In this document: positions 39,669 through 60,644 of the stretch, in pieces
How the letters are laid out: each line of letters starts with the position of its first letter
Position numbering within the stretch: position 1 is the stretch's first letter
The notes under the pieces: generated by a model
Database searches by the model: none
What the model saw: the letters and a program-made list of their open reading frames with translations, nothing else
Told to the model about the DNA's origin: nothing
IMG/VR virus record: IMGVR_UViG_3300028048_001599
DNA length: 64,000 nucleotides
Reading direction: 5' to 3' (one strand)
Source: a virus
Taxonomy: Duplodnaviria; Heunggongvirae; Uroviricota; Caudoviricetes
Position numbers and translations under genes: made by a program

Positions 39669-39678
39669 AGACTTCCTA

Positions 39679-40582: not shown

Positions 40583-40594
40583 TGGGGGATTCTT

Positions 40595-41048: not shown

Positions 41049-41458
41049 GGAAGCATACAATAAAAGCAGTGTCCAAAAACGAAACATATTTAAATGTTAA
41101 AACATTTAGGTTAGGTGGTATCAGAAAAATGGAATGTAAATATTGTGGTAACACAGACGCACATAACTTTGTACTAAGACGAAAAGGTTCTCAGACAGGT
41201 TTATATTGTGTCAACTGTGGAAAATGGCTCAAATGGGTAGGTAAAGTGGAACTAAGGGCAATAAAATCATTAGGGGTAAAAGAGGAAGTCGACCAAGAAC
41301 AGAATCAAGTACCCAACACTTTGACAAAGCAACACGACAAGTTCATCTGTACTTACTGTGGCTCAACCGAATATGAAAAACGTCAGGTCAGTATTCACAC
41401 TGGAATTTACTGTAAGACTTGTGGGAAGTGGCACTCATGGGTCAAGAAAAGTCGATAA
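41042..41458 (+). CDS. Tandem zinc-ribbon protein
   Basis: Two copies of the CxxCG...CxxCGKW module (CKYCGNT...CVNCGKW and CTYCGST...CKTCGKW). Confidence 0.55.
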   Translation: MLGKHTIKAVSKNETYLNVKTFRLGGIRKMECKYCGNTDAHNFVLRRKGSQTGLYCVNCGKWLKWVGKVELRAIKSLGVKEEVDQEQNQVPNTLTKQHDKFICTYCGSTEYEKRQVSIHTGIYCKTCGKWHSWVKKSR

Positions 41459-41465
41459 AAGACGA

Positions 41466-41499
41466 ATTGACGGTGATTCATAATCACCGTCAATTTTTA
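41466..41499 (+). terminator. Rho-independent terminator
   Basis: ttgacggtgatt-cat-aatcaccgtcaa followed by TTTTTAT. Confidence 0.75.
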
Positions 41500-41818
41500 T
41501 GGTATTTTATGGTAAAATTTGTAGAAAGCTCTACGGCTCGATTTAAGGGGATTTTCATAGCCGAGGGGTAGTTTCTCAAATATCAATAAAAAATCGCTCA
41601 CAGGGCTTCACAGGGCAAAATAGAGCTATTCTGAGGTTCAGTTGTCAGGTGGTCGGTTGATATTTGGTTGTAGTTGGTCATTATTGTTAAGTCGGTGGAA
41701 TGACAGATTTTTCCAATGTTGTATTATTTTTCGAGGACATAGAATAATTAAATACTACTTGAATTAGTACCAAAAAATTCATATGTAGCAATAATAAATT
41801 GCAAAGGAGTTGTTAAAA

Positions 41819-42700
41819 TTGTTAGTAAAAGAACTAAGGGATAATTCTGAATTACCTGAAAAATTTATAGATACTTTGCTCGAGACTTGTCCTGATTGTG
41901 GTTCGGACATGCAAATTAACGATTCACTTAGGGAATTAAGCTGTAGCAATCCTTATTGTAAAGGTAAGGTAGCACAGAGAATGGTTTCTTTACTTGCAGA
42001 TATGGGGGTAAAGAACATGGGTGAATCTCGTTGTTTGAAGTTTATTGAAGAAACAGGGTTGAAATATCCGGCATCTATTCTTCAATGGGAACCTTCAGAT
42101 GGTGACATAGGAGACTTATCCTCAGACTTCCTAAATGGTATCAAGGAACAGATAGACAGTCATCGTTCAATGATGTTGTGGGAGTATATAAAATATTCAA
42201 ATATTCCATACTTGAGGGATACGGCAAGAGAATTGTTTAAGGGGTATAATGACCTTAAACAATTTTATGCTATACTTGAATCGTATGGTGACCATGGGGT
42301 ATTTTTTATTCAGGATATACTGAAAATTAAGGATGAGGGTGTAGTATCCATAAGGGCACTGAATATTTATACTTCTCTTGTTACCTACAAGGAAGAGTTA
42401 CTCTACGGAATAAATTTCGTAAATATCATAGTTCCTCAGTCAACATTGAATGTTTGTATTTCGACTTCTGTAGGAAATGGTTACTCGTCCAAAGCAGATT
42501 TTGTAAACCAAATGAATCAGAGATATGGTGATATTTGTCACATCAACTTCTTATCTTCGGTGACTAAAAACTGTGATTATCTGATATGGTCAAAACAGGG
42601 TGCGCCCACATCAAAGGTTAATAAAGCTACGAAGTATGATATCTCAATACTGACTGGTGAGGAGTTTGAAAGAATGTTGAGGGATAAATACAATGGCTAG
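41819..42700 (+). CDS. LigA-type DNA ligase C-terminal fragment (Cys4 zinc finger plus helix-hairpin-helix region)
   Basis: CPDCGSDMQINDSLRELSCSNPYCKGK matches the LigA zinc-finger pattern CPvCGS...L.C.NP.C. It is followed by HhH-like GVKNMGESRCLKFIE. The start is TTG 41810 or 41819. Confidence 0.6.
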   Translation: MLVKELRDNSELPEKFIDTLLETCPDCGSDMQINDSLRELSCSNPYCKGKVAQRMVSLLADMGVKNMGESRCLKFIEETGLKYPASILQWEPSDGDIGDLSSDFLNGIKEQIDSHRSMMLWEYIKYSNIPYLRDTARELFKGYNDLKQFYAILESYGDHGVFFIQDILKIKDEGVVSIRALNIYTSLVTYKEELLYGINFVNIIVPQSTLNVCISTSVGNGYSSKADFVNQMNQRYGDICHINFLSSVTKNCDYLIWSKQGAPTSKVNKATKYDISILTGEEFERMLRDKYNG

Positions 42701-43253
42701 AAAGAGTAAAACATTGGATTATAGATTAAGACATGCGGCAGTTTCTTATATTACTTCATATTATCGGGACAACTTGCGTGAAATAAGGAGTTCGGAACTT
42801 TATAGTTATGTTCAAACACATAAGGAATTATCAAACTTTGATTATGTAGTTTCTGTGGACACAAAGTCGAATAGTTACTTTTCATATTTACAGAAACTAT
42901 TGAAAGAAATATGTGGTGATGGTGAGCGTGCTGCTGAAAGATATAAATACTATTACGTCAAGTCTTTATACAAGGCTTACGAGGATATAATAGGATATAG
43001 TGTAGGTGGTAGTTGGTCACAGTTGTCTTTACTGATTGCGATGTGTGCATCGTTGGATATTGATTTCAAAGACACAGGGGTATCAATAGATGTACATGTA
43101 GTAAATCTTATACATCGATTGACTAATTACATAATATCCTTGTTTATATTGTACCAGAAGTCTGAGGGGTACGGTGACTTGCTTGTTGCATGTATTGAAG
43201 GTGTGGATATAGACGATATTGTTTCCGATATCATAGAACATAGTAAAGAGTGA
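42693..43253 (+). CDS. Hypothetical protein
   Basis: ORF overlapping the upstream stop. Confidence 0.5.
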   Translation: MARKSKTLDYRLRHAAVSYITSYYRDNLREIRSSELYSYVQTHKELSNFDYVVSVDTKSNSYFSYLQKLLKEICGDGERAAERYKYYYVKSLYKAYEDIIGYSVGGSWSQLSLLIAMCASLDIDFKDTGVSIDVHVVNLIHRLTNYIISLFILYQKSEGYGDLLVACIEGVDIDDIVSDIIEHSKE

Positions 43254-43254
43254 G

Positions 43255-43632
43255 GTGATACTGTTGTCAGAGTTAGACGAGAATGTAGAAACAGAGGGTG
43301 TAGGTGTCACACCAGAAAAAGACATAACACCGATAAAGACTAAGATTATACATACTATTATTTGGTGTTCTTATTTTGTGCTTGGTATAATTATTACAAT
43401 AGTAGCAATGCTTGTACAAAAAGAAATAACGATTAACTACAGTTCTTCGCAAATACCTTTAATAGTACTAATGTTTTTATCAGTAAGTGCTCAAAAGTAT
43501 ATAGGTCTTATGGGAGCAGTAGGGGTATTTTTTGCGATTAAGCGGAAAAGTTTCCCTAAATACTTTGCATTTATTTTTGGATTTTATACAGTCCTTTTAA
43601 TATTTGCTATAATAGGAGTGGTAATACTATAA
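43255..43632 (+). CDS. Small integral membrane protein (3-4 TM helices)
   Basis: GTG start. Hydrophobic helices. Confidence 0.5.
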   Translation: MILLSELDENVETEGVGVTPEKDITPIKTKIIHTIIWCSYFVLGIIITIVAMLVQKEITINYSSSQIPLIVLMFLSVSAQKYIGLMGAVGVFFAIKRKSFPKYFAFIFGFYTVLLIFAIIGVVIL

Positions 43633-45422
43633 TGGAAAAGAAACATCGTGATATAGTGATTAAGTACATGGAGTACTTCACTGAAACAACAGGAAAATCA
43701 GTTGATGACTTTTTTGCAGAGTTGTCAGGGTCGCCATCATGGCTGACATCTAATATTGTATCAACACTGAATAATAAGGGTATAAGTAAAGATAACCTTT
43801 TTGAGTACAAGGACTTAATTCATAGGTACGATAAAAGAGTATCAAAGACTGAGGGTGAGTTTTACACACCTGCTGTATGGTGTAGAGAAGCCCATAAGTA
43901 TATCAAAGACCTTTGTGGTTCAGACTGGGGTAGAGTGAATATTTGGGATGCATCTTGTGGTACTGGAAATCTACTTGCAGAAATTGATTATCCACACGAT
44001 AAGTTGTTCTGTTCAACTTTGAATGGTGAGGACATTGATATTGTTAAGACAAGACTTCCTGATGTTGAATCCTTTAAGCTTGATTTTCTCAATGAACGTG
44101 ATTATGACGATATGAACGAGTTCTTCTCTGAAAATTTACCTAATAGTCTTAGGGAGAAACTTCGTAACAATGAACCGTTCTTGTTCTTTATGAACCCACC
44201 GTATAGTGGAAATACACAGTCAGAGGTAGCAGAAATAATGCGACAGGAAAATCTTCCCAACGCATCTGAGGCATTTTGTCAGTTCTATCATAGGATTGAC
44301 ATGCTTTGTGATTACTATAACCTCACAAATGTTTACATTGCTTTCTTCCATCCGCTTTCAAAATATAAGTACCTGTTTAACAAAACAAGTCAATACAAGT
44401 TTGAGCGTGGTTTTTGTTTTGATAGGAAGGAGTTCAAGGGGACTTCAAACTTTGATACAACATGGTATGTTGGTCTTTACTTATGGAAGTCCACTGAAGC
44501 ACCTGTAAAGATGGATTCTTTTCCATTTATAAGAAAAGAGAATCATGATGGTACTATTGTAGATTGTGAAGAAATATATGTTGGTAACGATACTGACTAT
44601 AAAAAATCGCTCAGGGGTAGTTCCTCGGTGGGGTACATGTTCCTACCTGAATGTAACGGAAATGCAATCGACACTTCAAAGTCTGTAAAGGTTAAGAAAA
44701 ATGCAATAGGCTACTTTTCAAATCCATTTATCGACAAATCATCAGCTATGACAAGTAGTTGGTTTGATACTGTACCTTATTGTGACAACTATTCAATTAC
44801 TCCTGATGTATTTTTCAAGTTTGTACCGTTTGTACTTCTTAATGGTATGCGTAGTTCTGGTGCAATTCAGAACAGTAACTTTACAATTCATAGTCCTGAC
44901 GAGGGACTGGGTTACAAGGATTGGTTAATGGATAACCTCCCTCTGTTTTTGTTCTCACGTCATGCAAGATTCAGGTCAGTAAGGGGTATTGAATACGGTG
45001 GTTCAAAAATTGACATTGCAAACTCGATGTTTCCTGCTAAAAAGACCGATGTTCAGCAGATTATTACAGACGAGGTTCTTCTTGAGGACATCAATAATTC
45101 TGAAGCTAAGAATGATTTCATTGTTCAACTTATAAAATCAAATTATAATAGTTTCAGTGCTCCTGCACGTGACTTTTTCGATTTCTGTATGGTTAATGTT
45201 CTTGACAGTCTTACAGAAAATAAGCGTAAGAGTGACAGTTATGCTGGTGGTACTCAGTGTTGGGATGCTGGTATATTCCAAGTTAGAAAGTTACCTACAT
45301 TCTGGACACCGGATAAAGAAAAGAAGTATTTTGAATTACAGAATGACCTTGTAAGCTCACTCTCAGATGGGGTATATGATTTCGGACTTGTAGACAAGGG
45401 TTGGAAAAAAGAAGTATTTTGA
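43632..45422 (+). CDS. Gamma-class N6-adenine DNA methyltransferase with a long C-terminal (target-recognition-like) region
   Basis: Motif I IWDASCGTGNLL (D/E-x-xCGxGxFL) lies upstream of motif IV FFMNPPYSGN (NPPY). This order is that of the gamma class (Type IIG / HsdM / PglX-like). It is 596 aa with no nuclease motif seen. The 3' end is modified by an 88-bp tandem duplication. Confidence 0.7.
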   Translation: MEKKHRDIVIKYMEYFTETTGKSVDDFFAELSGSPSWLTSNIVSTLNNKGISKDNLFEYKDLIHRYDKRVSKTEGEFYTPAVWCREAHKYIKDLCGSDWGRVNIWDASCGTGNLLAEIDYPHDKLFCSTLNGEDIDIVKTRLPDVESFKLDFLNERDYDDMNEFFSENLPNSLREKLRNNEPFLFFMNPPYSGNTQSEVAEIMRQENLPNASEAFCQFYHRIDMLCDYYNLTNVYIAFFHPLSKYKYLFNKTSQYKFERGFCFDRKEFKGTSNFDTTWYVGLYLWKSTEAPVKMDSFPFIRKENHDGTIVDCEEIYVGNDTDYKKSLRGSSSVGYMFLPECNGNAIDTSKSVKVKKNAIGYFSNPFIDKSSAMTSSWFDTVPYCDNYSITPDVFFKFVPFVLLNGMRSSGAIQNSNFTIHSPDEGLGYKDWLMDNLPLFLFSRHARFRSVRGIEYGGSKIDIANSMFPAKKTDVQQIITDEVLLEDINNSEAKNDFIVQLIKSNYNSFSAPARDFFDFCMVNVLDSLTENKRKSDSYAGGTQCWDAGIFQVRKLPTFWTPDKEKKYFELQNDLVSSLSDGVYDFGLVDKGWKKEVF

Positions 45423-45502
45423 ATTACAGAATGACCTTGTAAGCTCACTCTCAGATGGGGTATATGATTTCGGACTTGTAGACAAGGGTTGGAAAAAAGA
45501 AG
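45319..45502 (+). repeat. Perfect 88-bp tandem duplication (two copies: 45327..45414 and 45415..45502, plus 8 shared flanking bases)
   Basis: Identical 88-mers TATTTTGAATTACAGAATGACC...GGTTGGAAAAAAGAAG are directly adjacent. 88 is not a multiple of 3, so copy 2 puts a TGA in frame and ends the MTase ORF. Confidence 0.9.
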
Positions 45503-45514
45503 GGGGTAATTAAA

Positions 45515-46144
45515 ATGAGACATTTAGATAGTGACACTAAAACAGCGATAAATCGTCTGCGTAGTGTTCTTCAGCATAAAACAATCAAATTCGGGGTATT
45601 TAATAATGTACTCGATATCGAAAAGACTGGTTCTGTTGTTTCTTCAAGTGTGAGCGAGGCTTGTGCTGACGGTCTTTATTCTGAGACAGACTCAAACATA
45701 GCTTTGGATATTACATATGTTACAGCAAAAACAAACATGGTAAATCAGCCTGAATGTCCTCAGCAGTCAATGCACCTGTTACTTCTTCCTACTACAGCGG
45801 ACAAAACATTCCCTGAAATGGTAGAAGTAAAGATGTTTGGCTCTTGTGGTAAACCGTCTACGGTGGGGGTAAATAAAGATACTGGCGATGTTTATCTTGT
45901 TTACGTCTTTGATAAGGAAATACAATTTTTACATTTCGGTACTCTATCTCAGATGGATAAAGAATTTGTCGTATCTGATGACAACATGACAACACCTTAT
46001 GAGTTTGGTATTTTCAAAGCAGCACTTTATAGATTTATCACACGTGACAATGGTTGGGATAATTTAAGAAATAGTATGTATATTCAGTTTAATCTGTCGC
46101 CTATTGTTCGTATGGCAGTTGGTAACGAGCCTGACGACAATTAA
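45515..46144 (+). CDS. Hypothetical protein
   Basis: ORF with RBS AGGGGGTAAT. Confidence 0.55.
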   Translation: MRHLDSDTKTAINRLRSVLQHKTIKFGVFNNVLDIEKTGSVVSSSVSEACADGLYSETDSNIALDITYVTAKTNMVNQPECPQQSMHLLLLPTTADKTFPEMVEVKMFGSCGKPSTVGVNKDTGDVYLVYVFDKEIQFLHFGTLSQMDKEFVVSDDNMTTPYEFGIFKAALYRFITRDNGWDNLRNSMYIQFNLSPIVRMAVGNEPDDN

Positions 46145-46158
46145 GTAAGGAGTCTGTT

Positions 46159-47187
46159 ATGCTTGAACAGATAAAATCATTACCTGATTCTATATGTAAT
46201 ATAATCGAATATTCAAACTGTAGTTCTGTTGAATATATAGCACAGCAGTTAATTATGGATAGATACATCATATCTCCTAATTACACAAACAATGTAGCAT
46301 CTGCTAAATTATTGAAAGACTGCATTAGTGAATCAAACACACTACCACTTCAAGGTAATCGTTGGTTAATAATTGTGGACGTAGATAAATTGGGGGTATC
46401 TGAAAGTTTAAAATCCATGGATTCTGTTGTTGCTACATCTGTTGTGATTTATCTTACGCACAATTATCGAACATTCAGAACGTTGATTGATAGTAGACAA
46501 TACAAACAGCAAGGTAGCACAAACTTTGCAACTCAGTTATACCTTGGTAAGTTGACTGATGCTTCGATTGATTTATTGTATGAATATTATATGAGAGGTA
46601 AAACTCAGGTAGAGCGTGATGTATTCTCAAGTAAGTTAATGAGATACATTAAGAAAAACTATAAATTTAACGCTGACCTTGTATGTGAATTATTCAGTAA
46701 AATCAAGGACGGTGCAAAACCTGTAAGTGAGAAGGAGATTATCGAATTAGTAGGTGTAGGGGGTAACACGCCACAGGCACTAACGATATCCTTATTAACC
46801 ACAACAACAAAATCAGTCGAGGGTAAAAAGCGGTTTTTGAAGAAAAATCTTATGTTGTTTAATGACTTGTCAATAAAATATAGTTATGAAACAACGTATA
46901 GTTATATGATAGCAACACTTAAAGGTATTATAGATATCAAGGAACTTCAGATAAGTGGAAAATATTTTGAGTTTTTCAAAAATATACCTGATAGTTACCC
47001 CGAAAAACGTCTAAAAAGAATAAACAGACTGCATAGATTTGAATATATAATACTTAATAGAATTTCATTGAGACGTGCTTTGGTTCTTCTTAAATGTATG
47101 CAGTCTAATGATTTTGACAAGGAACAAGTAATACTCAGAGGAATTTACGAATATACTAATAGGTTGGGATGTGGCGACAGTGAATAA
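46159..47187 (+). CDS. Hypothetical protein (342 aa)
   Basis: ORF with RBS AAGGAGT. Confidence 0.55.
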   Translation: MLEQIKSLPDSICNIIEYSNCSSVEYIAQQLIMDRYIISPNYTNNVASAKLLKDCISESNTLPLQGNRWLIIVDVDKLGVSESLKSMDSVVATSVVIYLTHNYRTFRTLIDSRQYKQQGSTNFATQLYLGKLTDASIDLLYEYYMRGKTQVERDVFSSKLMRYIKKNYKFNADLVCELFSKIKDGAKPVSEKEIIELVGVGGNTPQALTISLLTTTTKSVEGKKRFLKKNLMLFNDLSIKYSYETTYSYMIATLKGIIDIKELQISGKYFEFFKNIPDSYPEKRLKRINRLHRFEYIILNRISLRRALVLLKCMQSNDFDKEQVILRGIYEYTNRLGCGDSE

Positions 47188-47833
47188 AACAAATGCAACT
47201 TCACCTAATGAATTTTATTCTAAGGTGAAAGGTAAGTACCTTGATGATTGCGACCTTGACTCATTGTCAAGTGAGTTGAAAGGCTTAGTAAATAAATCAA
47301 GGGGTGCAAGGGATGCAAAGCGTAAGGCTGGTTTCACAGATATAGACAAAAACATTGAGACATTTAAGTCTGATATAACTGACATTGATGAAACTGTCAA
47401 TGGTTCAGATTTTGAGGACGTTGACGACTTTGAAGAATCCGAATATTCTGACAGCACTATAGAAAGTGAAAACGAGGATGATATAATTATAGACGAAACC
47501 GATGACGTTGATGACATTGACGAAATGGACGGTATTGGAGTCGATCCAGTACCTGAACCAAAGAAGAAAACTTTAATTAGTGACGCAAGGAACAATGAAG
47601 ATGCTATGGTAAAGGTTGGAATGATAACTTGTATAATTATCTTCTTGGTTATACAGGCATGCTTTGTAATACTATGGGGTATTGACGGTTTTCCACAGGA
47701 AAGAACATTTGGTGTATTTATTCCTACAATAGTTATTGTAGTTCTATACGGTATCATAACAATAGTTGACCTTATAAGGTTTATTAGATATACTATTAAA
47801 ACAAACAAGTCGAAAGGTGGTAAAGACAAATGA
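47171..47833 (+). CDS. Acidic protein with C-terminal TM helices
   Basis: GTG start. D/E-rich middle region. C-terminal hydrophobic helices and a basic tail. Confidence 0.5.
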   Translation: MATVNKTNATSPNEFYSKVKGKYLDDCDLDSLSSELKGLVNKSRGARDAKRKAGFTDIDKNIETFKSDITDIDETVNGSDFEDVDDFEESEYSDSTIESENEDDIIIDETDDVDDIDEMDGIGVDPVPEPKKKTLISDARNNEDAMVKVGMITCIIIFLVIQACFVILWGIDGFPQERTFGVFIPTIVIVVLYGIITIVDLIRFIRYTIKTNKSKGGKDK

Positions 47834-48468
47834 TAGTAAAGATGGCATCTAATGAGTGTGTCGGTAAATTTACATCAAAGCGTAAGATACAGACGGTAGT
47901 TGAGGTAGAAACCATAGAGGATTTAAGGAGTAACTTTAATAATATTAAGACTGCCGACGTTGTTGTTTATAAGGGTGATATTGACACATTTATTGATTCA
48001 TTCACACCGGACAATGTACTTAATGTAGATATTATGTACTCAGTAAACCCTGATATTGTAAATCTATCACTGCTTGACAAGTTAAAGGGGTATAATGTAC
48101 TCTGTAAAGTTCCTGATGGTTATCATAACATGGAACAGCTTCATAGTATCAGTTCAATGTATGGTAACATTAGATTTTGTGGGGGTCATTTACTGGCACT
48201 TGATGGTATAAACATCGGCTTGTTTGATGTTGAAAAAGAAAAGAGATATGTATTTAAGGATGAATATAGCTGTCAGGAAGATATTAAGACACTTGCAGAC
48301 CTTGATGAACTTGGTATAACTTACGCTTTCACCTCACCTAAGGAAAATGTACCTAAGATACCTAAGATTAAAGCACCGAAAGTTCTAAAAGATACAACTA
48401 AAAAACCAAAAGTTTCTAAACCCAAGAAACAACCTAAATTCAACGTAGGTGGTATGGGTGCTTTTTAA
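47830..48468 (+). CDS. Hypothetical protein with a Lys/Pro-rich C-terminal tail
   Basis: RBS AAGGTGGTAAAGACA. The tail is KIKAPKVLKDTTKKPKVSKPKKQPK. Confidence 0.5.
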   Translation: MIVKMASNECVGKFTSKRKIQTVVEVETIEDLRSNFNNIKTADVVVYKGDIDTFIDSFTPDNVLNVDIMYSVNPDIVNLSLLDKLKGYNVLCKVPDGYHNMEQLHSISSMYGNIRFCGGHLLALDGINIGLFDVEKEKRYVFKDEYSCQEDIKTLADLDELGITYAFTSPKENVPKIPKIKAPKVLKDTTKKPKVSKPKKQPKFNVGGMGAF

Positions 48469-48485
48469 GTTAGGGGTTGAACATT

Positions 48486-49460
48486 ATGAAAAAGTTAATC
48501 ACTAATTTAACAGAGCAATATATCAAGATGGAGGCTAAAGGTAAACAGGGTTTGAGATATAAACTTTACGGTTTTATAATAAGGTGTTATAAACGGCACG
48601 AAGGTAAAACAGTATCTCGAAAGTGGTTCTGGTTTTGGGGTCGATTTCACTTGCCTCCTTTTTGGTGGCGAACTAAAACATTTAAGATTATCACTTCATG
48701 TATGGTTATTTTGACTGTTGGTATTGTGGTTTTATACCTTTTATCAAATCAAAATGCGGAAAAAATTGTTTCTGATATAAGTTTAACTCCAATAGAGCGT
48801 TCAAGTAATGGAAGTAGAGAAAATACTAATTCTGTTGAGTCATCAGATGACCGTCCTAAGATGTATGAGGGTTCACTTGATATAGAAGAAACAGAGAACT
48901 ATGATTTCTTACGCTATGACTTATCTGATGCAGTAGCAAAGAATAGTGATACTGTGGGTTGGTTGACGGTTGATTATTGTGGCATAAACTACCCTGTTGT
49001 TCAAGGTACTGATAATGACTTCTATCTTAAACATGATTTTTACAAGAATTATAATTCTCATGGTTGGATTTTTCGGGATTGTAGATTTAATGATACAACA
49101 TATCATAATACAGTACTTTATGGTCACAATCTAATGGTTGGGGGTATGTTTTCAAATTTATCGTCTATATTTGATAGCAAGGAGCCTGTTTATGTAAAAT
49201 TTCAATCTACTTCAAGCACTTATATTTATAAGGTTGTTTCAGTGTATACAACTGAACCTGTTTTGGAGTACATTGAAATGAATTTTGATTCTATTGAAAA
49301 GTTAAGAAAATTTCACAAGGATATATTGGCAAGTAACCAGTGGAAATATGCTCCAAAAGAGGACTTAAAAGATGATGACAGAATATTAACATTATCTACT
49401 TGTTATGGTGATAATAGATTAGCTGTTCATTGTAAACTTCTTGCTAGTGAGATACTTTAA
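48486..49460 (+). CDS. Class B sortase (transpeptidase)
   Basis: N-terminal TM anchor. His motif LYGHN. Catalytic Cys motif TLSTCYGD (TLxTC). About 37 kDa, typical of SrtB. ATG 48486 lies 9 nt after GGGG. Confidence 0.75.
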   Translation: MKKLITNLTEQYIKMEAKGKQGLRYKLYGFIIRCYKRHEGKTVSRKWFWFWGRFHLPPFWWRTKTFKIITSCMVILTVGIVVLYLLSNQNAEKIVSDISLTPIERSSNGSRENTNSVESSDDRPKMYEGSLDIEETENYDFLRYDLSDAVAKNSDTVGWLTVDYCGINYPVVQGTDNDFYLKHDFYKNYNSHGWIFRDCRFNDTTYHNTVLYGHNLMVGGMFSNLSSIFDSKEPVYVKFQSTSSTYIYKVVSVYTTEPVLEYIEMNFDSIEKLRKFHKDILASNQWKYAPKEDLKDDDRILTLSTCYGDNRLAVHCKLLASEIL

Positions 49461-49484
49461 TAAAAAGTTAATAAAATCAAAGGG

Positions 49485-49521
49485 GTAGCACATCTAAATG
49501 GTGTGCTATTTACATTTTTTC
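49485..49521 (+). terminator. Rho-independent terminator
   Basis: tagcacatc-taaatg-gtgtgcta followed by TTTACATTTTTT. Confidence 0.6.
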
Positions 49522-49573
49522 ACACTTAAACTTTATATGATAATAAGAAAAATTAAGTGTAGGAGTTGATTTT

Positions 49574-50680
49574 ATGCATATTTCGGAAGATTACAGAATC
49601 CAGATTCAGGCAGAAATTGACCGACTTCAAAATCATGAGGGCAAGTCAAAAATTCAGCCACAGGATATTGCAGTTATAAGGATATTGCAGAATATTCTTG
49701 ATGACGACCAATTACCTTGGGAAAAGTCTTTTATAGCACCGGCAATTAACTACATCACTAAAACTCAGTATTCAGGTGTTAATCGTTGGATACTTCCTGG
49801 TGGTGAGTATGTAACCTTTAAACAGTTGGTGGAGTACAACAAAAAGAACAATACAAACTTTAGAATTAGCCCTGTTACAGATGAGGACAGGGGTATGACT
49901 CGATTGCTGAAGGGTTCTTTTCCTGTTGTTCATTATAATGTAAGACCACCAAGGGAGGCTACTGAGGAGGAAATCAAGAGGCATCAGGAAGGTAAAAAAG
50001 TATACGGTATATATCAAGATCAAGATACTGGTAAGTTTATGATACAACCACATGCAACTTGTAGTTACTTTAAGGTGTTCAATACTATTTATATTGTAGA
50101 CCCCGATACTGGGGAGGCATTTCCGAGGTTAAATATTGAGAAACATAATACTCTATTTACAGGTGAAAAAATAGTATCAGAGTATCAGAAATTATCAGGG
50201 GTAAAAATAATGTATGACACTCCTGGTAGATGTTTCTACTCACGTAATGAAGATGCAATTCATATGTCACCGCTTAATACATTTAGGAGTACTAAGAAAA
50301 ATCTTGACCCTGTTGTAGAATATTATAGTACTACATTCCATGAGATGGGACACAGTACAGGGGTAGAAAAACGTTGTAACAGGGAATGTTTTAAAGAATG
50401 GGATGGCTTTGGTTCTTTGAATTACTCGATGGAGGAATGTGTGGCTGAAATGACTGCAACATTATTACTCTCTGAGTTAAAAGTCGACCATAATACAATA
50501 GACCGTACTATTGATAATAGTGCATCATACATAGCAGGTTGGCTTGACTTTGTGTTAAAGCGTGATAAAAATGATAAGTACGGTAAAGGTGCAGAAAAAC
50601 TGATATACGCTGTACGAAGGGCAGAAAAAGCAAGGAACTATATCATGAGTTGGTTTAACGAATGTAAATCATCTTCTTAA
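49574..50680 (+). CDS. ArdC-like anti-restriction protein (ArdC-N ssDNA-binding domain plus zincin-like HExxH metallopeptidase domain)
   Basis: N-terminus LPWEKSF...NYITKTQYSGVNRWIL (ArdC_N signature lPW...N.tg..Y.G.N..L). C-terminus FHEMGHSTG..KRCNRE...EECVAEMTATLL.SEL (HExxH...EEL.AE motif of ArdC/DUF1738). Confidence 0.65.
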   Translation: MHISEDYRIQIQAEIDRLQNHEGKSKIQPQDIAVIRILQNILDDDQLPWEKSFIAPAINYITKTQYSGVNRWILPGGEYVTFKQLVEYNKKNNTNFRISPVTDEDRGMTRLLKGSFPVVHYNVRPPREATEEEIKRHQEGKKVYGIYQDQDTGKFMIQPHATCSYFKVFNTIYIVDPDTGEAFPRLNIEKHNTLFTGEKIVSEYQKLSGVKIMYDTPGRCFYSRNEDAIHMSPLNTFRSTKKNLDPVVEYYSTTFHEMGHSTGVEKRCNRECFKEWDGFGSLNYSMEECVAEMTATLLLSELKVDHNTIDRTIDNSASYIAGWLDFVLKRDKNDKYGKGAEKLIYAVRRAEKARNYIMSWFNECKSSS

Positions 50681-50940: not shown

Positions 50941-51582
50941 TTGTTAAAATATATTTTGATTTTTAAAGCACATGAATTAAATAGGCATAAGGAAAATCAC
51001 TCGATTACAAAGACGAATATGTTATCTTTTTCTGTTAATGCACAAGTTACTTGTGATGTACCAGCACAAATGCGTAGGCTTATTCAGGGTAGTATTGCAA
51101 GTGGTGAAACGCACTTTCTTTTAGAGGATATAGGCGACTTATATCTTGGTATTGCTGACCCTCACAGAAAGAATCATGTATCTGAGGACGTTAACACGTT
51201 CAGTTATATGAAAAAATGTAAATGGACAAAACAAGCACGTAAAAACAAGTACGAAAGTAACATTATATCGCAGGAAGAAGAGGACGATGAAAACGTAACA
51301 GGTGGGGTAGCCGAAAGAGTACTTGCCTATGTCGAAACAGACCTCGATAGAATTGCTGACAGTTCCGAATTTAAGTATTGTCTGGAACAGCTTTATGATA
51401 TGGCTGATTTGATAGAGATTGAATATGATATAAACATTATCACAGCTATGCTTCAGGCAGCAAAAGGAAATATAGTATCGATCGGTCTTATTAAGAGTGT
51501 TAAGGACAAGTATATTGGTTTATCTGACTTGTTATTTAAAGTTATGACACATGAGGGCTGGGCTGAGGCTCTTGCTCATTAA
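50941..51582 (+). CDS. Hypothetical protein. The start is uncertain (TTG 50941 or ATG 51019 giving MLSFSVN...).
   Basis: ORF downstream of promoter 50796. No strong RBS at either start. Confidence 0.4.
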   Translation: MLKYILIFKAHELNRHKENHSITKTNMLSFSVNAQVTCDVPAQMRRLIQGSIASGETHFLLEDIGDLYLGIADPHRKNHVSEDVNTFSYMKKCKWTKQARKNKYESNIISQEEEDDENVTGGVAERVLAYVETDLDRIADSSEFKYCLEQLYDMADLIEIEYDINIITAMLQAAKGNIVSIGLIKSVKDKYIGLSDLLFKVMTHEGWAEALAH

Positions 51583-51614
51583 GACTTAAAATTATAAAGG
51601 ACGGTATTTAATCA

Positions 51615-52877
51615 ATGTTATCATTTTCAGTAAATTCAACTATAGAGTTAAATTTAACAGCCCTCCTTTGGCGTTATGTAGAGAAAAATGTAGGTATGAT
51701 ACGTAAGGCAGTATCACTGAATGTACCTGGATATGTTCAGGATAGAAAAGGGGTAATTGATGCTCAGGTTGATGTTCTTAAAGAAGAGATATGGTTTAAG
51801 ACCGTAACCAACTTTAGGGTTAGTCTAGCTAACCCTAATTTTGATTACGATGAACAAGTAGAGCACTACGTTAAGTCAACAATTAAGAACACCTTAAAAG
51901 ATTTGAATGACTCAAAGAAAAAAGGTGCTGTTCCTGTTGACTTAGATTTACTCGATGGACACAATAACACATCGGATGATGAAAATGTGGGTGATGCAAG
52001 AGCACTGTATCAATTATTCCACACTGTTGCAAATAATCCGGAGCACCTTGAATCTTTGGAACATTCCATTAAACTTGAGGAGTTTCGTAAACTGGTGGTG
52101 GAAATTTATCTGACAGATAAAAAGTTATACGATACTCTGGATGAATTAGTTCAGATTTGTTGTGATAACAGTATTTCACGAATCCGAATAGATAACAAAA
52201 TAAAGTACATCAGGGGTAAAAAGGAAGAAAAATTGATTTTAAGGTTTTTTGACTACTTTGCTCATGCAAGTTTACCTGAGATTGAAAATACTTTTAACGA
52301 ATTTAGAAAGGTAGCTCCAGCACCTATGTCTAAATCAAAAGAAATCGTAATAAAGGATTATCCATTTTATCAGTATGCAGAACCCGATGAAATTTATAGA
52401 GGGGTAGTCAAACAAGGAAGTAAACTTGCAAAATTTGATTTTACCAATTGTAGATTTGACAACAACGTTGAATTGGAGACTTCTCTATTTAACATAGTAA
52501 ACTCTAAAACAAATAAGATATATCGTATTCGTATTGAGGATTACTTAGATTATGCAAGTTATAATACAAACGTGGAAGAAGGGGTAGAAACCGAGTTACT
52601 TCATTGGTTTAAGGATTTTTACATATACTCACTCCCCTCTGGAAAACGTGTCGGTTTCTGTAACGACCCTTCTGAATATATGATAATGGTTAAACAGGAA
52701 CTTCTCGCAAACTTGCTAAAAAGTGGCATTACAAACATATTTGCAATGACTGACTCTTATGTTTATTTCTCACCTAAAACTAAACCAAAATATTCCTGTG
52801 TATATAGTAAGCTTTTCAATGGAAAGGTTATAAAAATGAATGTGCAGGAGGTTTACAATGTTAGTAGTAAAGGTTGA
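51615..52877 (+). CDS. Hypothetical protein (420 aa), immediately upstream of the DNA polymerase
   Basis: ORF with RBS AAGGACGG. The N-terminus MLSFSVN is identical to the internal start of the preceding ORF. Confidence 0.55.
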   Translation: MLSFSVNSTIELNLTALLWRYVEKNVGMIRKAVSLNVPGYVQDRKGVIDAQVDVLKEEIWFKTVTNFRVSLANPNFDYDEQVEHYVKSTIKNTLKDLNDSKKKGAVPVDLDLLDGHNNTSDDENVGDARALYQLFHTVANNPEHLESLEHSIKLEEFRKLVVEIYLTDKKLYDTLDELVQICCDNSISRIRIDNKIKYIRGKKEEKLILRFFDYFAHASLPEIENTFNEFRKVAPAPMSKSKEIVIKDYPFYQYAEPDEIYRGVVKQGSKLAKFDFTNCRFDNNVELETSLFNIVNSKTNKIYRIRIEDYLDYASYNTNVEEGVETELLHWFKDFYIYSLPSGKRVGFCNDPSEYMIMVKQELLANLLKSGITNIFAMTDSYVYFSPKTKPKYSCVYSKLFNGKVIKMNVQEVYNVSSKG

Positions 52878-53322
52878 CCGAAATGAATATACCGAGAACG
52901 GTAGTAAACGGGAAATATGGGGGTATCAGTTCCTTTTAGATGGACATTTACTGAAGCAGGAGGTTATAAAAGCGAGGGTAAATTCTGATGACACACGATT
53001 GATGCGTTACATCAGATGTTATCAGTGGGCTTTTGAGAAGATAAGTGGTTATATCAATACCAATAGTATTGGTAGAGATACTCTTAATATTTATTTTACC
53101 AATAGTACCATAAATACGTGGTTGCATAATGGTAAGGTGTATAAGGATTATCGTATAGCCTTTGATAAAGTAATGGGGGTACTTGACAATATTCCTATGA
53201 CCTTGAAATTTATTAAGGTTGACCGTAATTGGTCTTTTAGAAAACTGTTGGTGAACGATAATATAACAAGGGAGCGTTATTCAAACCTTGCATCATTTCT
53301 TAATTCAATGGAGGGGGACTAA
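52858..53322 (+). CDS. Hypothetical protein
   Basis: ATG after GCAGGAGGTTTACA. Confidence 0.5.
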   Translation: MLVVKVDRNEYTENGSKREIWGYQFLLDGHLLKQEVIKARVNSDDTRLMRYIRCYQWAFEKISGYINTNSIGRDTLNIYFTNSTINTWLHNGKVYKDYRIAFDKVMGVLDNIPMTLKFIKVDRNWSFRKLLVNDNITRERYSNLASFLNSMEGD

Positions 53323-56300
53323 TGCTAACAGGTGTATTAAAATATAGAGATTTAAGTAGTAAAGACTACGATGGAACAAATATGGATTATACCTTTAATG
53401 TTAAGGCTGCGGAGTTTCCTGATGTTCTTTGGTTGTCACTTGTAACGACTGAGACTGATGTTTTTAAACTTGTCGATATCAATAAGATGATTCACAAGTG
53501 TGTAAAACCGGAAAAGTTTGATAAAGACGTGAGTGATATCGCTACAGGTTCTTGTCGAATTGACGTTGGTAGTTCAGTAAAAACAAATGCAGTAAATACA
53601 ATCTTCGCTGCACGTATAGGTTCAGCAGTAAGGTACGCTTTGAGTGTCCCTGGTAGGACAGTATTGAATGAAAACGGTGACTTGTTAGCCACTGACAAAA
53701 TAGGGGGTAATGAGTTCAAGGTCAAATATTTCTGTAGTGTCCCTGTTGAAGTCTACATTAAAACTAAGTTTTTGGAACTTAGTGTAACAAAGGTTGATTC
53801 ATGCGAGGTATTCCCTAAACTTCAGGAAAAGAATAAATACGGTGATATTGTATCAATTACTCCTATTTCAAACATCGCCGTAAAGAAAAATGAAGAATTT
53901 TTAGGTTTTAAACCTCCTATGAAGGAAGTCGATGATGTTCCTGAATGGGGGTTAAGACAGACAATAGAAGAAGTAATCGAAGCAAATCCGAATAAGAACA
54001 CATCATGGATTTTGGATAGACATTACGTCATTGTTGATAAAAACAACGTTGATGAAATTATTGAAAAATTCCTAAATTATGACGGGCTTATAGCGTTCGA
54101 TACTGAAACAACAGGTCTTGATATTACATTTCGCTCAGCACAGGGCAATGGTGATACGATTGTAGGACTTTCATTATCTTATAAAGCAGGAGAGGGTTAT
54201 TACTTCCCACTTGCTCATAAGAAATTTGAGAACCTTACAGATGATATCGTCTACTTCATGCAAACAAAAATTCGTCCTATTCTTGAAGGTAAAAAGATAA
54301 TCTGTCATAACACAGCGTTCGACTGGAAGGTAGGCTATCTTTACGGTATCAACACGAATGTAGTGTTTGATACACTTGTTGCTTTCAATTGTACATTCCG
54401 TTATCAGTACGGTAAGGGTTACGAAACAGGATTGAAAGCGTTGGCAAAGAATATTCTTGGGTTAGACATGTTCGACCTTGAGGACTTTGTAATAGGAGAA
54501 TGGGGTAGTACTGAAATAAACTTTTCTGACCTACCTTACGAACTTGTTCGTAGATACGCAACTGCTGATGCTGATATGACATTGTCGTTGTATGATTGGC
54601 TTGTTAAGAATGATATACTCAATCGGTTTAATGCTGTACGTGTTCATGATTTAGAGGTACAATTTGCAAAGGTTGTAGCTTATTCTGAATATTGGGGGTA
54701 TCGTGTTGATATGGCGAAACTTCCTGATATGGTAACGAAAAATACTGAACAGTTAAAAACAGCTGAGCAGGAGATGTACCGACTTGCAGGTCATGAATTT
54801 AACCCTAATTCTCCGAAGCAGTTAAAGCAGATAATGTACGAGGAGTTAGGTATTGAGCAAATCAACGGTCAGGATAGTACCAAAGCGGAAATTTTGAAGG
54901 AACTTGATAAAATTCAAAATGCTGATGGTACTCGTAAATATCCTTTTGTTCATGCACTGCTTGAATATCGTAACAAAGAAGGTACGAATAAGAACTTCAT
55001 TAAAAAGCGTGACGAGTTTATAACTCCTGACGGGTTTATTTTCCCTCATGTATTCCAATTTGGTACTGATACTGGTCGTGTATCAATTAAAGAGCCGAAC
55101 TATCAGTCATATGATAAACTTGTAAAGCATTATATAGTACCAAGAGAGGGATATGTTCACTTTGACTGTGACTACTCTCAGATTGAATATCGTGTTCTTG
55201 CGTCAATGGCACAACAGACAAACCTTTGTGATGCTCTTGCCGACCCTGACATGGACTATCATACATACCAAGCAGCGAGAATGTTTAATGTTCCTTACGC
55301 ATCTGTAACATCTGCACTTAGAAAACAGTCAAAAGGTATCAACTTTGGACTTCCGTATGGTATGGAAGATAAGTCATTGGGTAAACGTATATTTGGACAG
55401 GTAACACCTGAGAATACTGCCAAGGCTGCTTTACTTCGTAAGAAGTACTTTCAGGGTCAGGAAAAGATACAGCAGTTCTTTGAAGTTGTGCGAGCACAGG
55501 GTGTAGCAGAGGGGTATACTGAAACCTGGCTTGGACGTCGTAGATACTATGATAAACAGCGTTTTGACGTTGGTTCAATTCGTAGACAGGCGGGCAATCA
55601 TGTTATACAGGGTTGTGTTGATGGTGATACTTTGATTCAGACGAAAGAACTTGGTATTGTTAAAATTAAGGACATAGTTGGGACAAGTCTGAATATATGG
55701 AATGGTGAGGTTTGGACTCATGGAGATGTGATGTACTCCGGTGAAAAACAGAAGTGCATTGTAAGATTCAAAGGCGGACAGGAGTTTATTTGTAGTCCAA
55801 TACATAAATTTCTTGTTATAGATGAAAACAATGAAGGACATTGGGTTGAATGTAAGGACTTGGTTAATGGGTTAAGTATACGTGTTAATGCCAATTATTC
55901 AAATTCAAATACACTGATTTGTTCATATTATGACGTAGAACATGTATTTGGTACTACTGATAGTATAAAAATAGGAAAGAAAATTGGTGGTATGGTATCA
56001 GTCGGGGTAATCAATGACACAGGTTTTCATAGATTATGTTGTTCAGATTATCAGAGATATATTGTTGAGGGTATATTCAATGATATGTTTAAAGATTGTG
56101 CTGTAGTGCGTGGTTTTGTAGCTGGACTGTTCTCTAAATATTTCAAGGACAATGGTTTCGATGGTGACACTGTAGAACTTACATTTATGGATAATGAATG
56201 GTATCATACATTATGTAAGAACGTACAAAAAGCATTATTGATGCACGGTATTAAAAGCACGGTGTCTAATAGTTCTATCGTAGTAAATGGGGTAGATGTT

Positions 56301-59927: not shown

Positions 59928-60644
59928 ATGCAATTATTTAATGACGATGCAATTAAAATTTTGAAGTCACTTCCTGATGAATCAATAGATTTGATAGTGA
60001 CCGACCCACCTTATAGAACAACCCCACATGGTAATTGTGGGAACGCAGGTGGAATGTTAAAAACGAAATTAAGTAGGCAAGGTAAGATATTTGAGCATAA
60101 TGACGTGAAGATTACTGATTATGCACCAGAGTTTTTTCGTATACTTAAGGATGGTACTCATTGTTATGTAATGACAAACCACTATAATTTGCTTGAAATG
60201 CTAACTGTATTCACGGATGTTGGTTTTCATTTTGTCAAATCACTTATATGGGACAAAACAAACAAGATAATGGGTAAATATTATATGTCACAGTTTGAAT
60301 ATATACTATTTTTCAGAAAAGGCACAGACCGTTCGATAAATAATGCAGGCACACCTGATATTTTGCGTATACCAAACAAGAAGTCAAAATACAATGGTAC
60401 AAATGCTCATGACACAGAAAAGCCTGTTGAACTTATGAGAATACTTATTGAAAATAGTAGTAATGAGGGTGATTTAGTATGTGACCCGTTTTTAGGCATC
60501 GGAGCTACAGGGGTAGCTGCTATTGAAACTGGTCGTGACTTTGTGGGTTCTGAAATAGACGAGGGGTATTTTAAAATAGCACAGCAAAGAATTGAGGATG
60601 CAGAAAATAGTGCTGATTTACTTGACTTTAGTAATTTGGAATAA
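59928..60644 (+). CDS. Beta-class DNA methyltransferase (N6A/N4C; DPPY motif precedes the FxGxG motif)
   Basis: LIVTDPPY near the N-terminus. VCDPFLGIGATGVAAIETGRDFVGSEID (AdoMet-binding motif I) near the C-terminus. Confidence 0.75.
   Translation: MQLFNDDAIKILKSLPDESIDLIVTDPPYRTTPHGNCGNAGGMLKTKLSRQGKIFEHNDVKITDYAPEFFRILKDGTHCYVMTNHYNLLEMLTVFTDVGFHFVKSLIWDKTNKIMGKYYMSQFEYILFFRKGTDRSINNAGTPDILRIPNKKSKYNGTNAHDTEKPVELMRILIENSSNEGDLVCDPFLGIGATGVAAIETGRDFVGSEIDEGYFKIAQQRIEDAENSADLLDFSNLE

What the first reader, a model, noticed from the sequence alone, without database searches (positions are those of the whole stretch)
43632..50680. Anti-restriction block: gamma-class MTase, four unknown genes, sortase, ArdC-like protein
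The block runs from an orphan gamma-class N6A MTase (NPPY; 596 aa with a long C-terminal specificity-like region) to an ArdC-like protein (ArdC-N ssDNA-binding domain plus HEMGH zincin domain). A ParB-HNH nuclease (37007..38353) and a beta-class MTase (59928..60644) lie nearby. Many small hyper-acidic proteins are present (8449.., 21125.., 24888.., 47171..). These are candidates for DNA-mimic anti-restriction factors like Ocr or ArdA. The four uncharacterised genes between the MTase and ArdC (45515..48468) are prime candidates for new anti-defence functions.
Basis: inference. Interest (0 to 1): 0.55.

Follow-up and report, generated by a model that had tools for sequence, protein, structure and literature searches.

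The report
Huge-phage replication operon, not anti-restriction island

Summary
The "anti-restriction block" reading is only partly supported.

The window comes from an uncultivated huge phage; exact-match contigs are 219 and 323 kb. Genes 41810-49460 form one tightly packed operon between two terminator-like hairpins. The ArdC-like gene is a separate unit.

The order LigA-C-terminal-like protein, methyltransferase-like protein, A, B, D is kept in every relative. That includes 373- and 388-kb contigs where D is about 20% identical. In one relative D runs straight into the g213-g420-g160-PolA genes, with no sortase, ArdC or C. Those three look like lineage-specific additions to a core block.

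- **A** is a confident model with no structural relative.
- **D** belongs to a family of at least 234 clusters, with a basic linker and a conserved C-terminal peptide ending in Phe.
- **C** is a two-TM membrane protein whose acidic tract is not conserved, so it is not a DNA mimic.
- **The sortase** is class-B-like, and the window encodes a candidate substrate at 18756-20945.

Best reading: a replication/repair-associated core cassette carrying accessory insertions.

The parts
41465..41505 (+). Terminator-like hairpin (14-bp stem, then TTTTATGGTATTTTAT) after the gene ending at 41458. A 300-nt intergenic region follows.
41810..42700 (+). g296, first gene of the operon. Homologue of the C-terminal half of NAD+-dependent DNA ligase LigA (Zn finger, HhH, BRCT). 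Likely the second subunit of a split ligase.
   Evidence: Profile A9 against PDB: 1dgs_A E 3.5e-7 (residues 403-535 and 619-660); 9hu3_B 'DNA ligase subunit B' E 7e-4. Conserved in all relatives.
42693..43253 (+). g186, unknown and poorly conserved; overlaps g296 by 8 nt
43255..43632 (+). 125-aa membrane protein with three predicted TM segments
43632..45422 (+). Divergent gamma-class amino-methyltransferase-like protein. Motifs X, I and IV lie in residues about 70-195, followed by a family-specific C-terminal region of about 370 aa.
   Evidence: Pfam N6_Mtase 22.5 bits. Only 3 of 12 orthologues reach E<=0.01. Motifs are intact in 10 of 13 orthologues and eroded in L013, L011 and L021. Weak HsdM-like PDB match 7vru.
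45319..45502 (.). Perfect 88-bp tandem duplication (2.1 copies) of the 3' end of the methyltransferase-like gene. It changes the last residues and creates the apparent 92-nt gap. Absent from the otherwise identical contig L002.
45515..46144 (+). A: 209-aa beta-rich protein with a confident model and no structural relative. Core gene.
46159..47187 (+). B: 342-aa AAA+-like protein without a P-loop, with a clamp-loader delta/tau/delta'-like three-part architecture. The most conserved of the four unknowns.
47171..47833 (+). C: 220-aa protein with an acidic, low-complexity N-terminal half and two C-terminal TM helices. Lineage-specific: absent in L014, L015, L021 and L022.
47830..48468 (+). D: 212-aa core protein. 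It has a globular domain with an RFCGG motif, a Lys-rich disordered linker and a conserved C-terminal peptide ending in Phe.
   Evidence: Alignments A2, A6 and A7. 234 clusters at E<=1e-3. 55 of 74 members end in F. No Pfam or PDB sequence match.
48477..49460 (+). Class-B-like sortase with an N-terminal TM anchor, a YGHN His motif and the TLSTC Cys motif. Last gene of the operon.
   Evidence: PF04203 E 2e-11. TIGR03064 class B E 1e-32, which is below its cut-off.
49483..49520 (+). Terminator-like hairpin (12 pairs plus a T-run) between the sortase and ArdC genes
49574..50680 (+). ArdC-like protein with a zincin metalloprotease domain (HEMGH) in its C-terminal half (residues 207-333); probably its own transcription unit
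50941..53322 (+). g213, g420 and g160: three unknown core genes that always precede PolA
   Evidence: No PDB or Pfam match.
53322..57377 (+). Family A DNA polymerase with a 3'-5' exonuclease domain and an intein
   Evidence: Relatives lack the intein or carry different ones.
18756..20945 (+). Candidate substrate of the phage sortase. 729-aa protein with a signal peptide, polyanionic D/T/P repeats (net charge -263) and a C-terminal sorting signal: TVKTG, then a hydrophobic helix, then KRKRED.
26200..27495 (+). NAD+-dependent DNA ligase N-terminal (catalytic) half; likely partner of g296

Best explanation
The region is part of the conserved DNA replication/repair core of an uncultivated huge phage that infects a Gram-positive host. 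It is not a dedicated anti-restriction island.

One operon (41810-49460) encodes nine proteins:
- a LigA C-terminal-like subunit (Zn finger, HhH, BRCT);
- two small proteins, one of them membrane-bound;
- a divergent gamma-class methyltransferase-like protein;
- A, which has a fold with no known relative;
- B, an ATPase-dead AAA+ protein of the clamp-loader delta/delta' type;
- C, a membrane protein found only in this lineage;
- D, a globular domain with a basic flexible linker and a C-terminal docking peptide;
- a class-B-like sortase.

The ancestral arrangement continues straight from D into g213-g420-g160-PolA.

Inferred mechanism: the methyltransferase-like protein, A, B and D act together on replicating phage DNA as polymerase-accessory or clamp-handling factors. 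B would play the nucleotide-free 'wrench/stator' role of a clamp-loader subunit. D would dock onto a partner through its C-terminal peptide. That partner might be a sliding clamp, because the peptide resembles the T4 SLDFLF tail and, from memory, the bacterial QLxLF motif. The methyltransferase domain, where intact, would methylate the new DNA.

The sortase, C and the ArdC-like gene are accessory insertions. The sortase most likely anchors the phage-encoded polyanionic wall protein (18756-20945) to the infected cell's peptidoglycan. ArdC is the one gene in the block with a genuine anti-restriction pedigree.

Shown: gene content, synteny, folds, motifs and operon boundaries. Inferred: physical association of the methyltransferase-like protein, A, B and D; clamp handling; the sortase-substrate pairing.
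For: - Source: exact-match contigs are 219 and 323 kb, and all genes lie on one strand.
- Synteny: the order g296 / MT-like / A / B / D is kept in 13 or more non-redundant loci, with D down to about 20% identity. These include the 373-kb, 388-kb and 101-kb contigs.
- L021: D is followed directly by g213-g420-g160-PolA, with no sortase, ArdC or C.
- Operon: the genes overlap or are at most 14 nt apart, and terminator-like hairpins bound the unit at 41465-41505 and 49483-49520.
- g296: a LigA C-terminal homologue, with the ligase catalytic half at 26200-27495. PolA lies downstream.
- D: a large family with a conserved basic linker and a terminal Phe peptide. The T4 gp43 and gp55 tails were read for comparison.
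- MT-like protein: its motifs are eroded in 3 of 13 lineages that still keep A, B and D. The cassette therefore does not depend on methylation.
- Sortase: class B-like, with an in-window protein carrying a cell-wall sorting signal. C. difficile SrtB uses (S/P)PXTG (PMC4155245).
Against: - No sequence-level link between B and HolA. hhalign against E. coli delta gave probability 0.1, and none of the 18 family members has a consistent Pfam hit.
- No sliding clamp and no P-loop ATPase were found in the cassette or anywhere in the 64-kb window.
- A, my first candidate for a clamp, is not one.
- Family A polymerase replisomes such as those of T7 and T5 do not normally use clamps (established knowledge).
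- The operon also encodes three membrane proteins and a sortase, which do not fit a replisome.
- The resemblance of D's tail to clamp-binding motifs is weak in the window's own copy (KFNVGGMGAF).
Confidence: 0.5

Rival explanations
1. One reading: the block is an anti-restriction or anti-defence island. The orphan methyltransferase and ArdC protect the DNA, and A, B, C and D are new anti-defence proteins, with C acting as an acidic DNA mimic.
For: - The ArdC homologue is real.
- ArdC is held to protect huge phages (bioRxiv 10.1101/2025.02.27.640493). R388 ArdC overcomes hsdRMS (PMC7213743).
- The methyltransferase motifs are intact in the window's copy.
- A and D have no known function, and nothing in PADLOC, Pfam or PHROGs contradicts an anti-defence role.
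Against: - A, B and D are core genes in fixed synteny next to ligase and polymerase genes across very distant relatives.
- B has a clamp-loader-type fold.
- C is a two-TM membrane protein with a non-conserved acidic tract, and it is absent in distant relatives.
- ArdC is a separate transcription unit and is variably present.
- The gene content that actually varies between near-identical contigs lies upstream, at about 38.7-41.5 kb.
Confidence: 0.12
2. The MT-like protein, A, B and D form a multi-subunit DNA-modification machine. This would protect phage DNA through an unusual or processive modification. B would be a DNA-loading or tracking subunit and D a DNA-binding subunit. That would be anti-restriction in the broad sense, but as a core function.
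For: - The four genes are strictly co-conserved and tightly spaced, with overlaps or short gaps between successive genes.
- Gamma-class motifs are intact in 10 of 13 orthologues.
- The 370-aa C-terminal region of the MT-like protein is conserved and family-specific.
- D has a Lys-rich linker.
Against: - Three lineages (L013, L011, L021) have lost motif X and/or I and/or IV yet keep A, B and D.
- A separate beta-class methyltransferase already exists at 59928-60644.
- No known modification system has this composition, and there are no PADLOC, Pfam or PHROG hits.
Confidence: 0.2
3. The operon is a cell-envelope module. The three membrane proteins (the 125-aa protein, C and the sortase) work with A, B and D to remodel or decorate the infected cell surface, for example for superinfection exclusion or adhesion.
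For: - The sortase is co-operonic and directly follows D in most relatives.
- There are several TM proteins in the operon.
- The window encodes many secreted or surface proteins, including one with a cell-wall sorting signal and a BspA-LRR/Ig giant protein.
Against: - A, B and D have no signal peptide or TM segment.
- B has a cytoplasmic AAA+ clamp-loader-type fold.
- L021 keeps the MT-like protein, B and D next to PolA with no sortase nearby, and in L022 the sortase lies 7 kb away.
- g296 is a DNA-ligase-type DNA-binding protein.
Confidence: 0.1

Closest known systems
Bacterial clamp-loader delta / delta' subunits (HolA, HolB) and T4 gp44/gp62
   Different: There is no detectable sequence similarity. 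No ATPase subunits or clamp are encoded nearby. The associated polymerase is family A, not a C- or B-family clamp user.
ArdC of plasmid R388 (PDB 6i89) and ArdC homologues of huge phages
   Same: The HExxH zincin domain aligns with ArdC (E 1.6e-7). There is a full-length match to the PHROG 7245 anti-restriction family. ArdC has already been reported in 101 huge-phage genomes.
   Different: Identity to any phage record is only about 30%. The N-terminal ssDNA-binding domain is not detected by Pfam. The gene is variably present among close relatives and is missing in L011.
Gamma-class N6-adenine DNA methyltransferases (HsdM / Pfam N6_Mtase)
   Same: Motifs X (GEFYTP), I (DxxCGTGNL) and IV (NPPY) occur in gamma-class order. 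The Pfam hit is just above threshold.
   Different: The family is very divergent: only 3 of 12 orthologues reach Pfam E<=0.01. The C-terminal 370 aa have no match. The protein is kept as a core gene even where catalytic motifs are lost. The substrate (DNA, RNA or protein) is unknown.
Class B sortases (S. aureus SrtB, C. difficile SrtB)
   Same: It has the sortase fold and a His motif plus the Cys (TLSTC) motif, with an N-terminal membrane anchor. The best NCBIfam match is class B. A candidate substrate carries xVKTG, a hydrophobic helix and a basic tail 30 residues from its C-terminus. This resembles the C. difficile (S/P)PXTG signals.
   Different: It is encoded by a lytic-type huge phage. 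Only 21 of 50,697 phage records hold any homologue. It scores below the class-B equivalog cut-off. The TVKTG motif is not a proven recognition sequence.
NAD+-dependent DNA ligase LigA, including split 'ligase subunit B' forms (PDB 9hu3)
   Same: g296 aligns with the LigA Zn-finger, HhH and BRCT region. A separate adenylation/OB half lies at 26200-27495.
   Different: The two halves are 14 kb apart. The C-terminal half heads the operon studied here rather than sitting beside its catalytic partner.
Ocr / ArdA DNA-mimic anti-restriction proteins
   Same: Several window proteins are strongly acidic.
   Different: The in-block candidate C is membrane-anchored, and its acidic tract is not conserved. 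The acidic tracts are low-complexity D/E runs. No Pfam or PHROG match to Ocr or ArdA was found for C, the only one of the acidic proteins scanned in both libraries. The largest acidic protein is a secreted wall-anchored repeat protein.

Membership tests
Gamma-class N6-adenine DNA methyltransferase (Pfam PF02384) | Motif order X, then I (FxGxG-type), then IV (NPPY) | tested here: met
   GEFYTP at 75-80, DASCGTGNL at 106-114 and NPPY at 188-191
Gamma-class N6-adenine DNA methyltransferase (Pfam PF02384) | Score above the Pfam gathering threshold, consistently across the family | tested here: inconclusive
   The window copy scores 22.5 bits against 20.4. Only 3 of 12 orthologues reach E<=0.01. 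The family profile finds nothing in PDB.
Gamma-class N6-adenine DNA methyltransferase (Pfam PF02384) | Catalytic motifs conserved in orthologues | tested here: inconclusive
   Ten of 13 are intact. L013 has EPSS instead of NPPY, and L011 and L021 lack motifs X and I.
Gamma-class N6-adenine DNA methyltransferase (Pfam PF02384) | Methylates adenine in DNA at a defined motif | not testable with these tools
   Needs SMRT or nanopore sequencing, or an enzyme assay
ArdC anti-restriction protein | C-terminal zincin metalloprotease domain with HExxH, homologous to R388 ArdC | tested here: met
   HEMGH at 256-260. PF18818 E 3e-23. 6i89 E 1.6e-7 over residues 149-337.
ArdC anti-restriction protein | N-terminal ssDNA-binding ArdC-N domain | tested here: inconclusive
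   No Pfam ArdC-N hit at E<=0.1. However, PHROG 7245 aligns residues 34-359, so it covers the N-terminal half.
ArdC anti-restriction protein | Protects incoming DNA from type I restriction | not testable with these tools
   Needs an in vivo assay
Class B sortase | Sortase domain with catalytic His and a TLxTC cysteine | tested here: met
   PF04203 E 2e-11; YGHN and TLSTC motifs
Class B sortase | Reaches the NCBIfam class-B equivalog cut-off | tested here: not met
   TIGR03064 scores 113.4 bits against a cut-off of 153.75. It is still the best class.
Class B sortase | A cognate substrate with a signal peptide and a C-terminal sorting signal | tested here: met
   18756-20945 has a signal peptide and ends ...TVKTGD-TMPIMAMVGVAIASALAGIAAFF-KRKRED. 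The pairing itself is inferred.
Clamp-loader delta/delta' subunit (HolA/HolB-like) | AAA+-like domain I, lid and helical collar architecture without ATP binding | tested here: met
Clamp-loader delta/delta' subunit (HolA/HolB-like) | Sequence or profile similarity to HolA or HolB | tested here: not met
   hhalign of A1 against E. coli HolA gave probability 0.1. No Pfam hit in 18 members. No PDB sequence hit.
Clamp-loader delta/delta' subunit (HolA/HolB-like) | Partner ATPase subunits and a sliding clamp | tested here: not met
   No Walker-A AAA+ protein among the window ORFs. A is not a clamp. g420 has no PDB sequence match. The rest of the genome was not available.
Sliding clamp (gp45/DnaN/PCNA), considered for A | Two or three repeated clamp domains with the clamp fold | tested here: not met
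DNA-mimic anti-restriction proteins (Ocr/ArdA), considered for C | Small soluble protein whose conserved acidic surface mimics DNA | tested here: not met
   C has two TM helices. Its acidic tract is replaced by neutral or basic sequence in L012, L013 and L011. No Pfam or PHROG hit.
NAD+ DNA ligase C-terminal module, for g296 | Four-Cys Zn finger, HhH and BRCT region homologous to LigA | tested here: met
   1dgs_A E 3.5e-7 in two stretches (403-535 and 619-660). Invariant or nearly invariant C27, C30, C45 and C50.

The most novel reading that the evidence does not exclude
The MT-like protein, A, B and D form a previously undescribed four-protein machine that is a hallmark of a large clade of huge phages. 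A methyltransferase-derived scaffold, a protein with a new fold, an ATPase-dead delta-like 'wrench' and a peptide-tailed adaptor would together capture the host sliding clamp or clamp loader, or another DNA-bound ring, for a family A polymerase replisome. Separately, the phage carries its own sortase to graft a phage-encoded polyanionic protein onto the wall of the infected cell.
Probability: 0.15. Interest if true: 0.7.

Novelty: new variant of a known kind. Interest (0 to 1): 0.42.

Why it matters
It moves the search for anti-defence genes in this phage away from the flagged block. The better target is the segment that actually varies between near-identical contigs, about 38.7-41.5 kb.

It also defines a conserved, wholly uncharacterised gene cassette beside the polymerase of a widespread huge-phage lineage; the D family alone has at least 234 clusters at 50% identity. 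If the cassette is a replisome accessory complex built around an ATPase-dead clamp-loader-like protein, it would be a new way for phages to organise replication.

The phage-borne sortase with a candidate substrate in the same genome is a testable case of a virus covalently remodelling the Gram-positive cell wall.

Tried and rejected
- **Sequence link between B and HolA:** hhalign probability 0.1. Pfam on 18 members gave nothing consistent. PDB profile search found nothing.
- **Close relatives in reference collections:** no megablast match in plasmids or phages. No tblastn match for B in phages. IMG/VR scans found nothing for B or D, and the broad D alignment was too divergent to search with. 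The one genome-contig hit (a Nitrosomonas MAG) did not match any cassette family.
- **Profiles against PDB sequences:** nothing significant for D, A, g420, g160 or the methyltransferase family.
- **Other libraries:** PADLOC gave no hits for the nine block and PolA-proximal proteins scanned; g296 alone gave two weak PDC-S48 hits (E 0.0015 and 0.008). NCBIfam was informative only for the sortase.
- **Promoter scan:** at chance level, 57 sites found against 54 expected.
- **More sortase substrates:** none in the flanking loci, and no LPXTG-type signal elsewhere in the window.
- **afdb50 fold library:** not available.

Full report
**Observation**

- The 596-aa protein (43632-45422) has GEFYTP, DASCGTGNL and NPPY in gamma-class order. 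Its Pfam N6_Mtase hit is marginal: 22.5 bits against a cut-off of 20.4.
- 48477-49460 is a sortase (PF04203, E 2e-11).
- 49574-50680 carries HEMGH. It matches MPTase-PolyVal (3e-23), PHROG 7245 'anti-restriction protein' (1e-39) and R388 ArdC 6i89 (1.6e-7).
- ParB-HNH (37007-38353) and a beta-class methyltransferase (59928-60644) are confirmed.
- The acidic proteins are real, with net charges of -20 to -59.
- The 92-nt gap after the methyltransferase gene is an artefact of a perfect 88-bp tandem duplication (45319-45502). The duplication is absent from an otherwise identical contig.

**What the element is**

All genes lie on the + strand and GC is about 34%.
- The exact protein sequence of 46159-47187 occurs on metagenomic contigs of 219 and 323 kb.
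- The window encodes a family A polymerase with an intein, an NAD+ ligase catalytic half and a CHAP-domain protein.
- There is no nucleotide match in the plasmid or phage collections. PolA is at most 30% identical to any phage record.
- This is an uncultivated huge phage. The sortase and a protein with a cell-wall sorting signal point to a Gram-positive host.

**Synteny**

I fetched loci around homologues of B and D. I scored their ORFs with HMMs built from the window's genes.
- The order g296, (g186), a small TM protein, MT-like, A, B, D is kept in every locus long enough to show it.
- That includes contigs of 388 kb (L018), 373 kb (L021) and 101 kb (L022), where D is only about 20% identical. 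L021 has no separate A gene; its B orthologue is 488 aa.
- In L021, D is followed directly by g213-g420-g160-PolA. There is no sortase, ArdC or C.
- Elsewhere the sortase follows D (most loci), lies 7 kb away (L022) or is undetected (L017).
- ArdC follows the sortase, lies 5 kb away (L018) or is replaced (L011).
- C is missing from L014, L015, L021 and L022.
- A, B and D are therefore core genes. The sortase, ArdC and C are lineage-specific additions.
- Between near-identical contigs, the gene content that actually varies lies upstream, at about 38.7-41.5 kb in the window.

**Operon structure**

From 41810 to 49460 successive genes overlap or are at most 14 nt apart, leaving aside the duplication artefact. 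A 14-bp-stem hairpin with a T-rich tail sits at 41465-41505. A 12-pair hairpin with a T-run sits at 49483-49520, between the sortase and ArdC genes. The promoter scan was at chance level.

**The individual genes**

- **g296 (41810-42700).** It is homologous to the Zn-finger, HhH and BRCT half of LigA: 1dgs_A E 3.5e-7, and 9hu3_B 'DNA ligase subunit B' E 7e-4. With the catalytic half at 26200-27495, this looks like a split NAD+ ligase.
- **B (46159-47187).**
  - It belongs to a family of 18 clusters, and the AF2 model has pLDDT 84.9.
  - B has no Walker A. By eye it is collinear with E. coli delta, 342 aa against 343 aa.
  - Profile methods find no sequence link.
  - I file B as working like a delta/delta'-type subunit. 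I do not file it as a demonstrated member of the family.
- **D (47830-48468).** It belongs to a much larger family: 234 clusters at E<=1e-3 and 177 at E<=1e-10.
  - No member among 74 scanned has a Pfam match above its gathering cut-off: six unrelated families each matched one member weakly, and there was no significant PDB sequence match.
  - Members share a globular domain with a near-invariant GG (RFCGG) and a Lys-rich linker (28% K/R).
  - They also share a C-terminal hydrophobic peptide; 55 of 74 end in Phe and 12 in Leu.
  - Typical tails are LPSFASLGGLDSF, KKQLSSLLDL...NF and KKVSIFDIFDI. They recall the T4 clamp-binding tails SLDFLFG and SLDFLYEAND, which I read from NC_000866.
  - From memory, they also recall the bacterial QLxLF motif. 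This is a lead, not a test.
- **C (47171-47833).** It has two TM helices. Its acidic tract is not conserved in orthologues.
- **The MT-like protein.** It keeps motifs X, I and IV in 10 of 13 orthologues. L013 (EPSS in place of NPPY), L011 and L021 have lost motifs yet still retain A, B and D. Only 3 of 12 orthologues reach Pfam N6_Mtase.

**Sortase and ArdC**

The sortase is closest to class B: TIGR03064 E 1e-32, below its cut-off.
- The window encodes a 729-aa protein (18756-20945) with a signal peptide and polyanionic D/T/P repeats (net charge -263).
- That protein has a canonical sorting-signal layout: TVKTG, a hydrophobic helix, then KRKRED.
- The C. difficile class B sortase uses (S/P)PXTG. 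NVQTG was also proposed, but it was not cleaved in vitro (PMC4155245).
- Sortase homologues occur in only 21 of 50,697 phage records.
- ArdC homologues in huge phages are already described (bioRxiv 10.1101/2025.02.27.640493). R388 ArdC overcomes hsdRMS (PMC7213743).

**Interpretation**

The best-supported reading is that the flagged block is mostly a core, replication/repair-associated operon of a huge-phage lineage.
- It is headed by a ligase-type DNA-binding subunit and continues into the PolA module.
- Accessory genes (C, sortase, ArdC) have been inserted into it.
- I infer that the MT-like protein, A, B and D act together on replicating DNA. B would be a nucleotide-free clamp-loader-type subunit and D a peptide-tailed adaptor.

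Weak points:
- No clamp or ATPase partner was found in the 64-kb window.
- B has no sequence link to HolA.
- Family A polymerases usually do not use clamps.
- The operon also contains membrane proteins.

**Verdict**

This is a new variant of a known kind and of moderate interest.

Noticed in passing
window 45319-45502: Perfect 88-bp tandem duplication (2.1 copies) at the 3' end of the methyltransferase-like gene. It is absent from the otherwise 100%-identical contig L002. It alters the last residues (596 aa against 597 aa) and creates a false intergenic gap. It may be a real polymorphism or an assembly artefact.
   Followed up: yes
window 18756-20945: 729-aa secreted protein made of polyanionic D/T/P repeats (net charge -263), ending in a Gram-positive cell-wall sorting signal (TVKTG, hydrophobic helix, KRKRED). 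It is a candidate substrate of the phage's own sortase.
   Followed up: partly
window 26200-27495 and 41810-42700: The NAD+-dependent DNA ligase appears split into a catalytic half and a separate Zn-finger/HhH/BRCT half, encoded 14 kb apart. The latter also matches PDB 9hu3 'DNA ligase subunit B'.
   Followed up: partly
window 53322-57377; L003, L008, L010, L012: The PolA intein is polymorphic. PolA is 1351 aa with an intein here, 1067 aa without one in the near-identical contig L003, 1445 aa with a LAGLIDADG domain in L010, and 1076-1223 aa in other relatives.
   Followed up: no
window about 38700-41500 (between ParB-HNH and g296): This is the segment whose gene content differs between contigs that are otherwise 95-100% identical (L001 and L003 against L002 and the window). 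It includes DUF4869 genes that are whole in some contigs and split in the window (40595-40798 and 40788-41048). It is a better place to look for accessory or anti-defence genes.
   Followed up: no
window 1868-8338: 2156-aa protein with an N-terminal hydrophobic segment, BspA-type leucine-rich repeats (E 8e-44) and weak, sub-threshold matches to Ig-like domains. It looks like a surface or adhesin-type giant protein, not a virion RNA polymerase.
   Followed up: partly
window 1-64000: Only one Walker-A (P-loop) match occurs among 103 + strand ORFs, and it lies inside the 2156-aa surface-type protein. No helicase, terminase or clamp-loader ATPase is encoded in these 64 kb.
   Followed up: partly
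L013 7747-9345, L011 7562-9331, L021 6428-8302: Orthologues of the methyltransferase-like protein have lost motif X and/or I and/or IV (for example EPSS in place of NPPY). They remain full-length and syntenic, which suggests a non-catalytic role.
   Followed up: yes
window 31215-32792, 33574-34611 and many ORFs between 13000 and 39600: There is an SPFH/Band-7 protein, a CHAP-domain protein with an N-terminal TM segment, and about ten further ORFs with signal-peptide-like N-termini. This part of the phage genome is unusually rich in secreted or envelope proteins.
   Followed up: no
L015 491-1447: A distant relative that has no ArdC homologue in the stretch downstream of its sortase (the contig ends about 2 kb beyond the sortase gene) encodes a SprT-like zinc metalloprotease upstream of the cassette. 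This may be a functional analogue.
   Followed up: no
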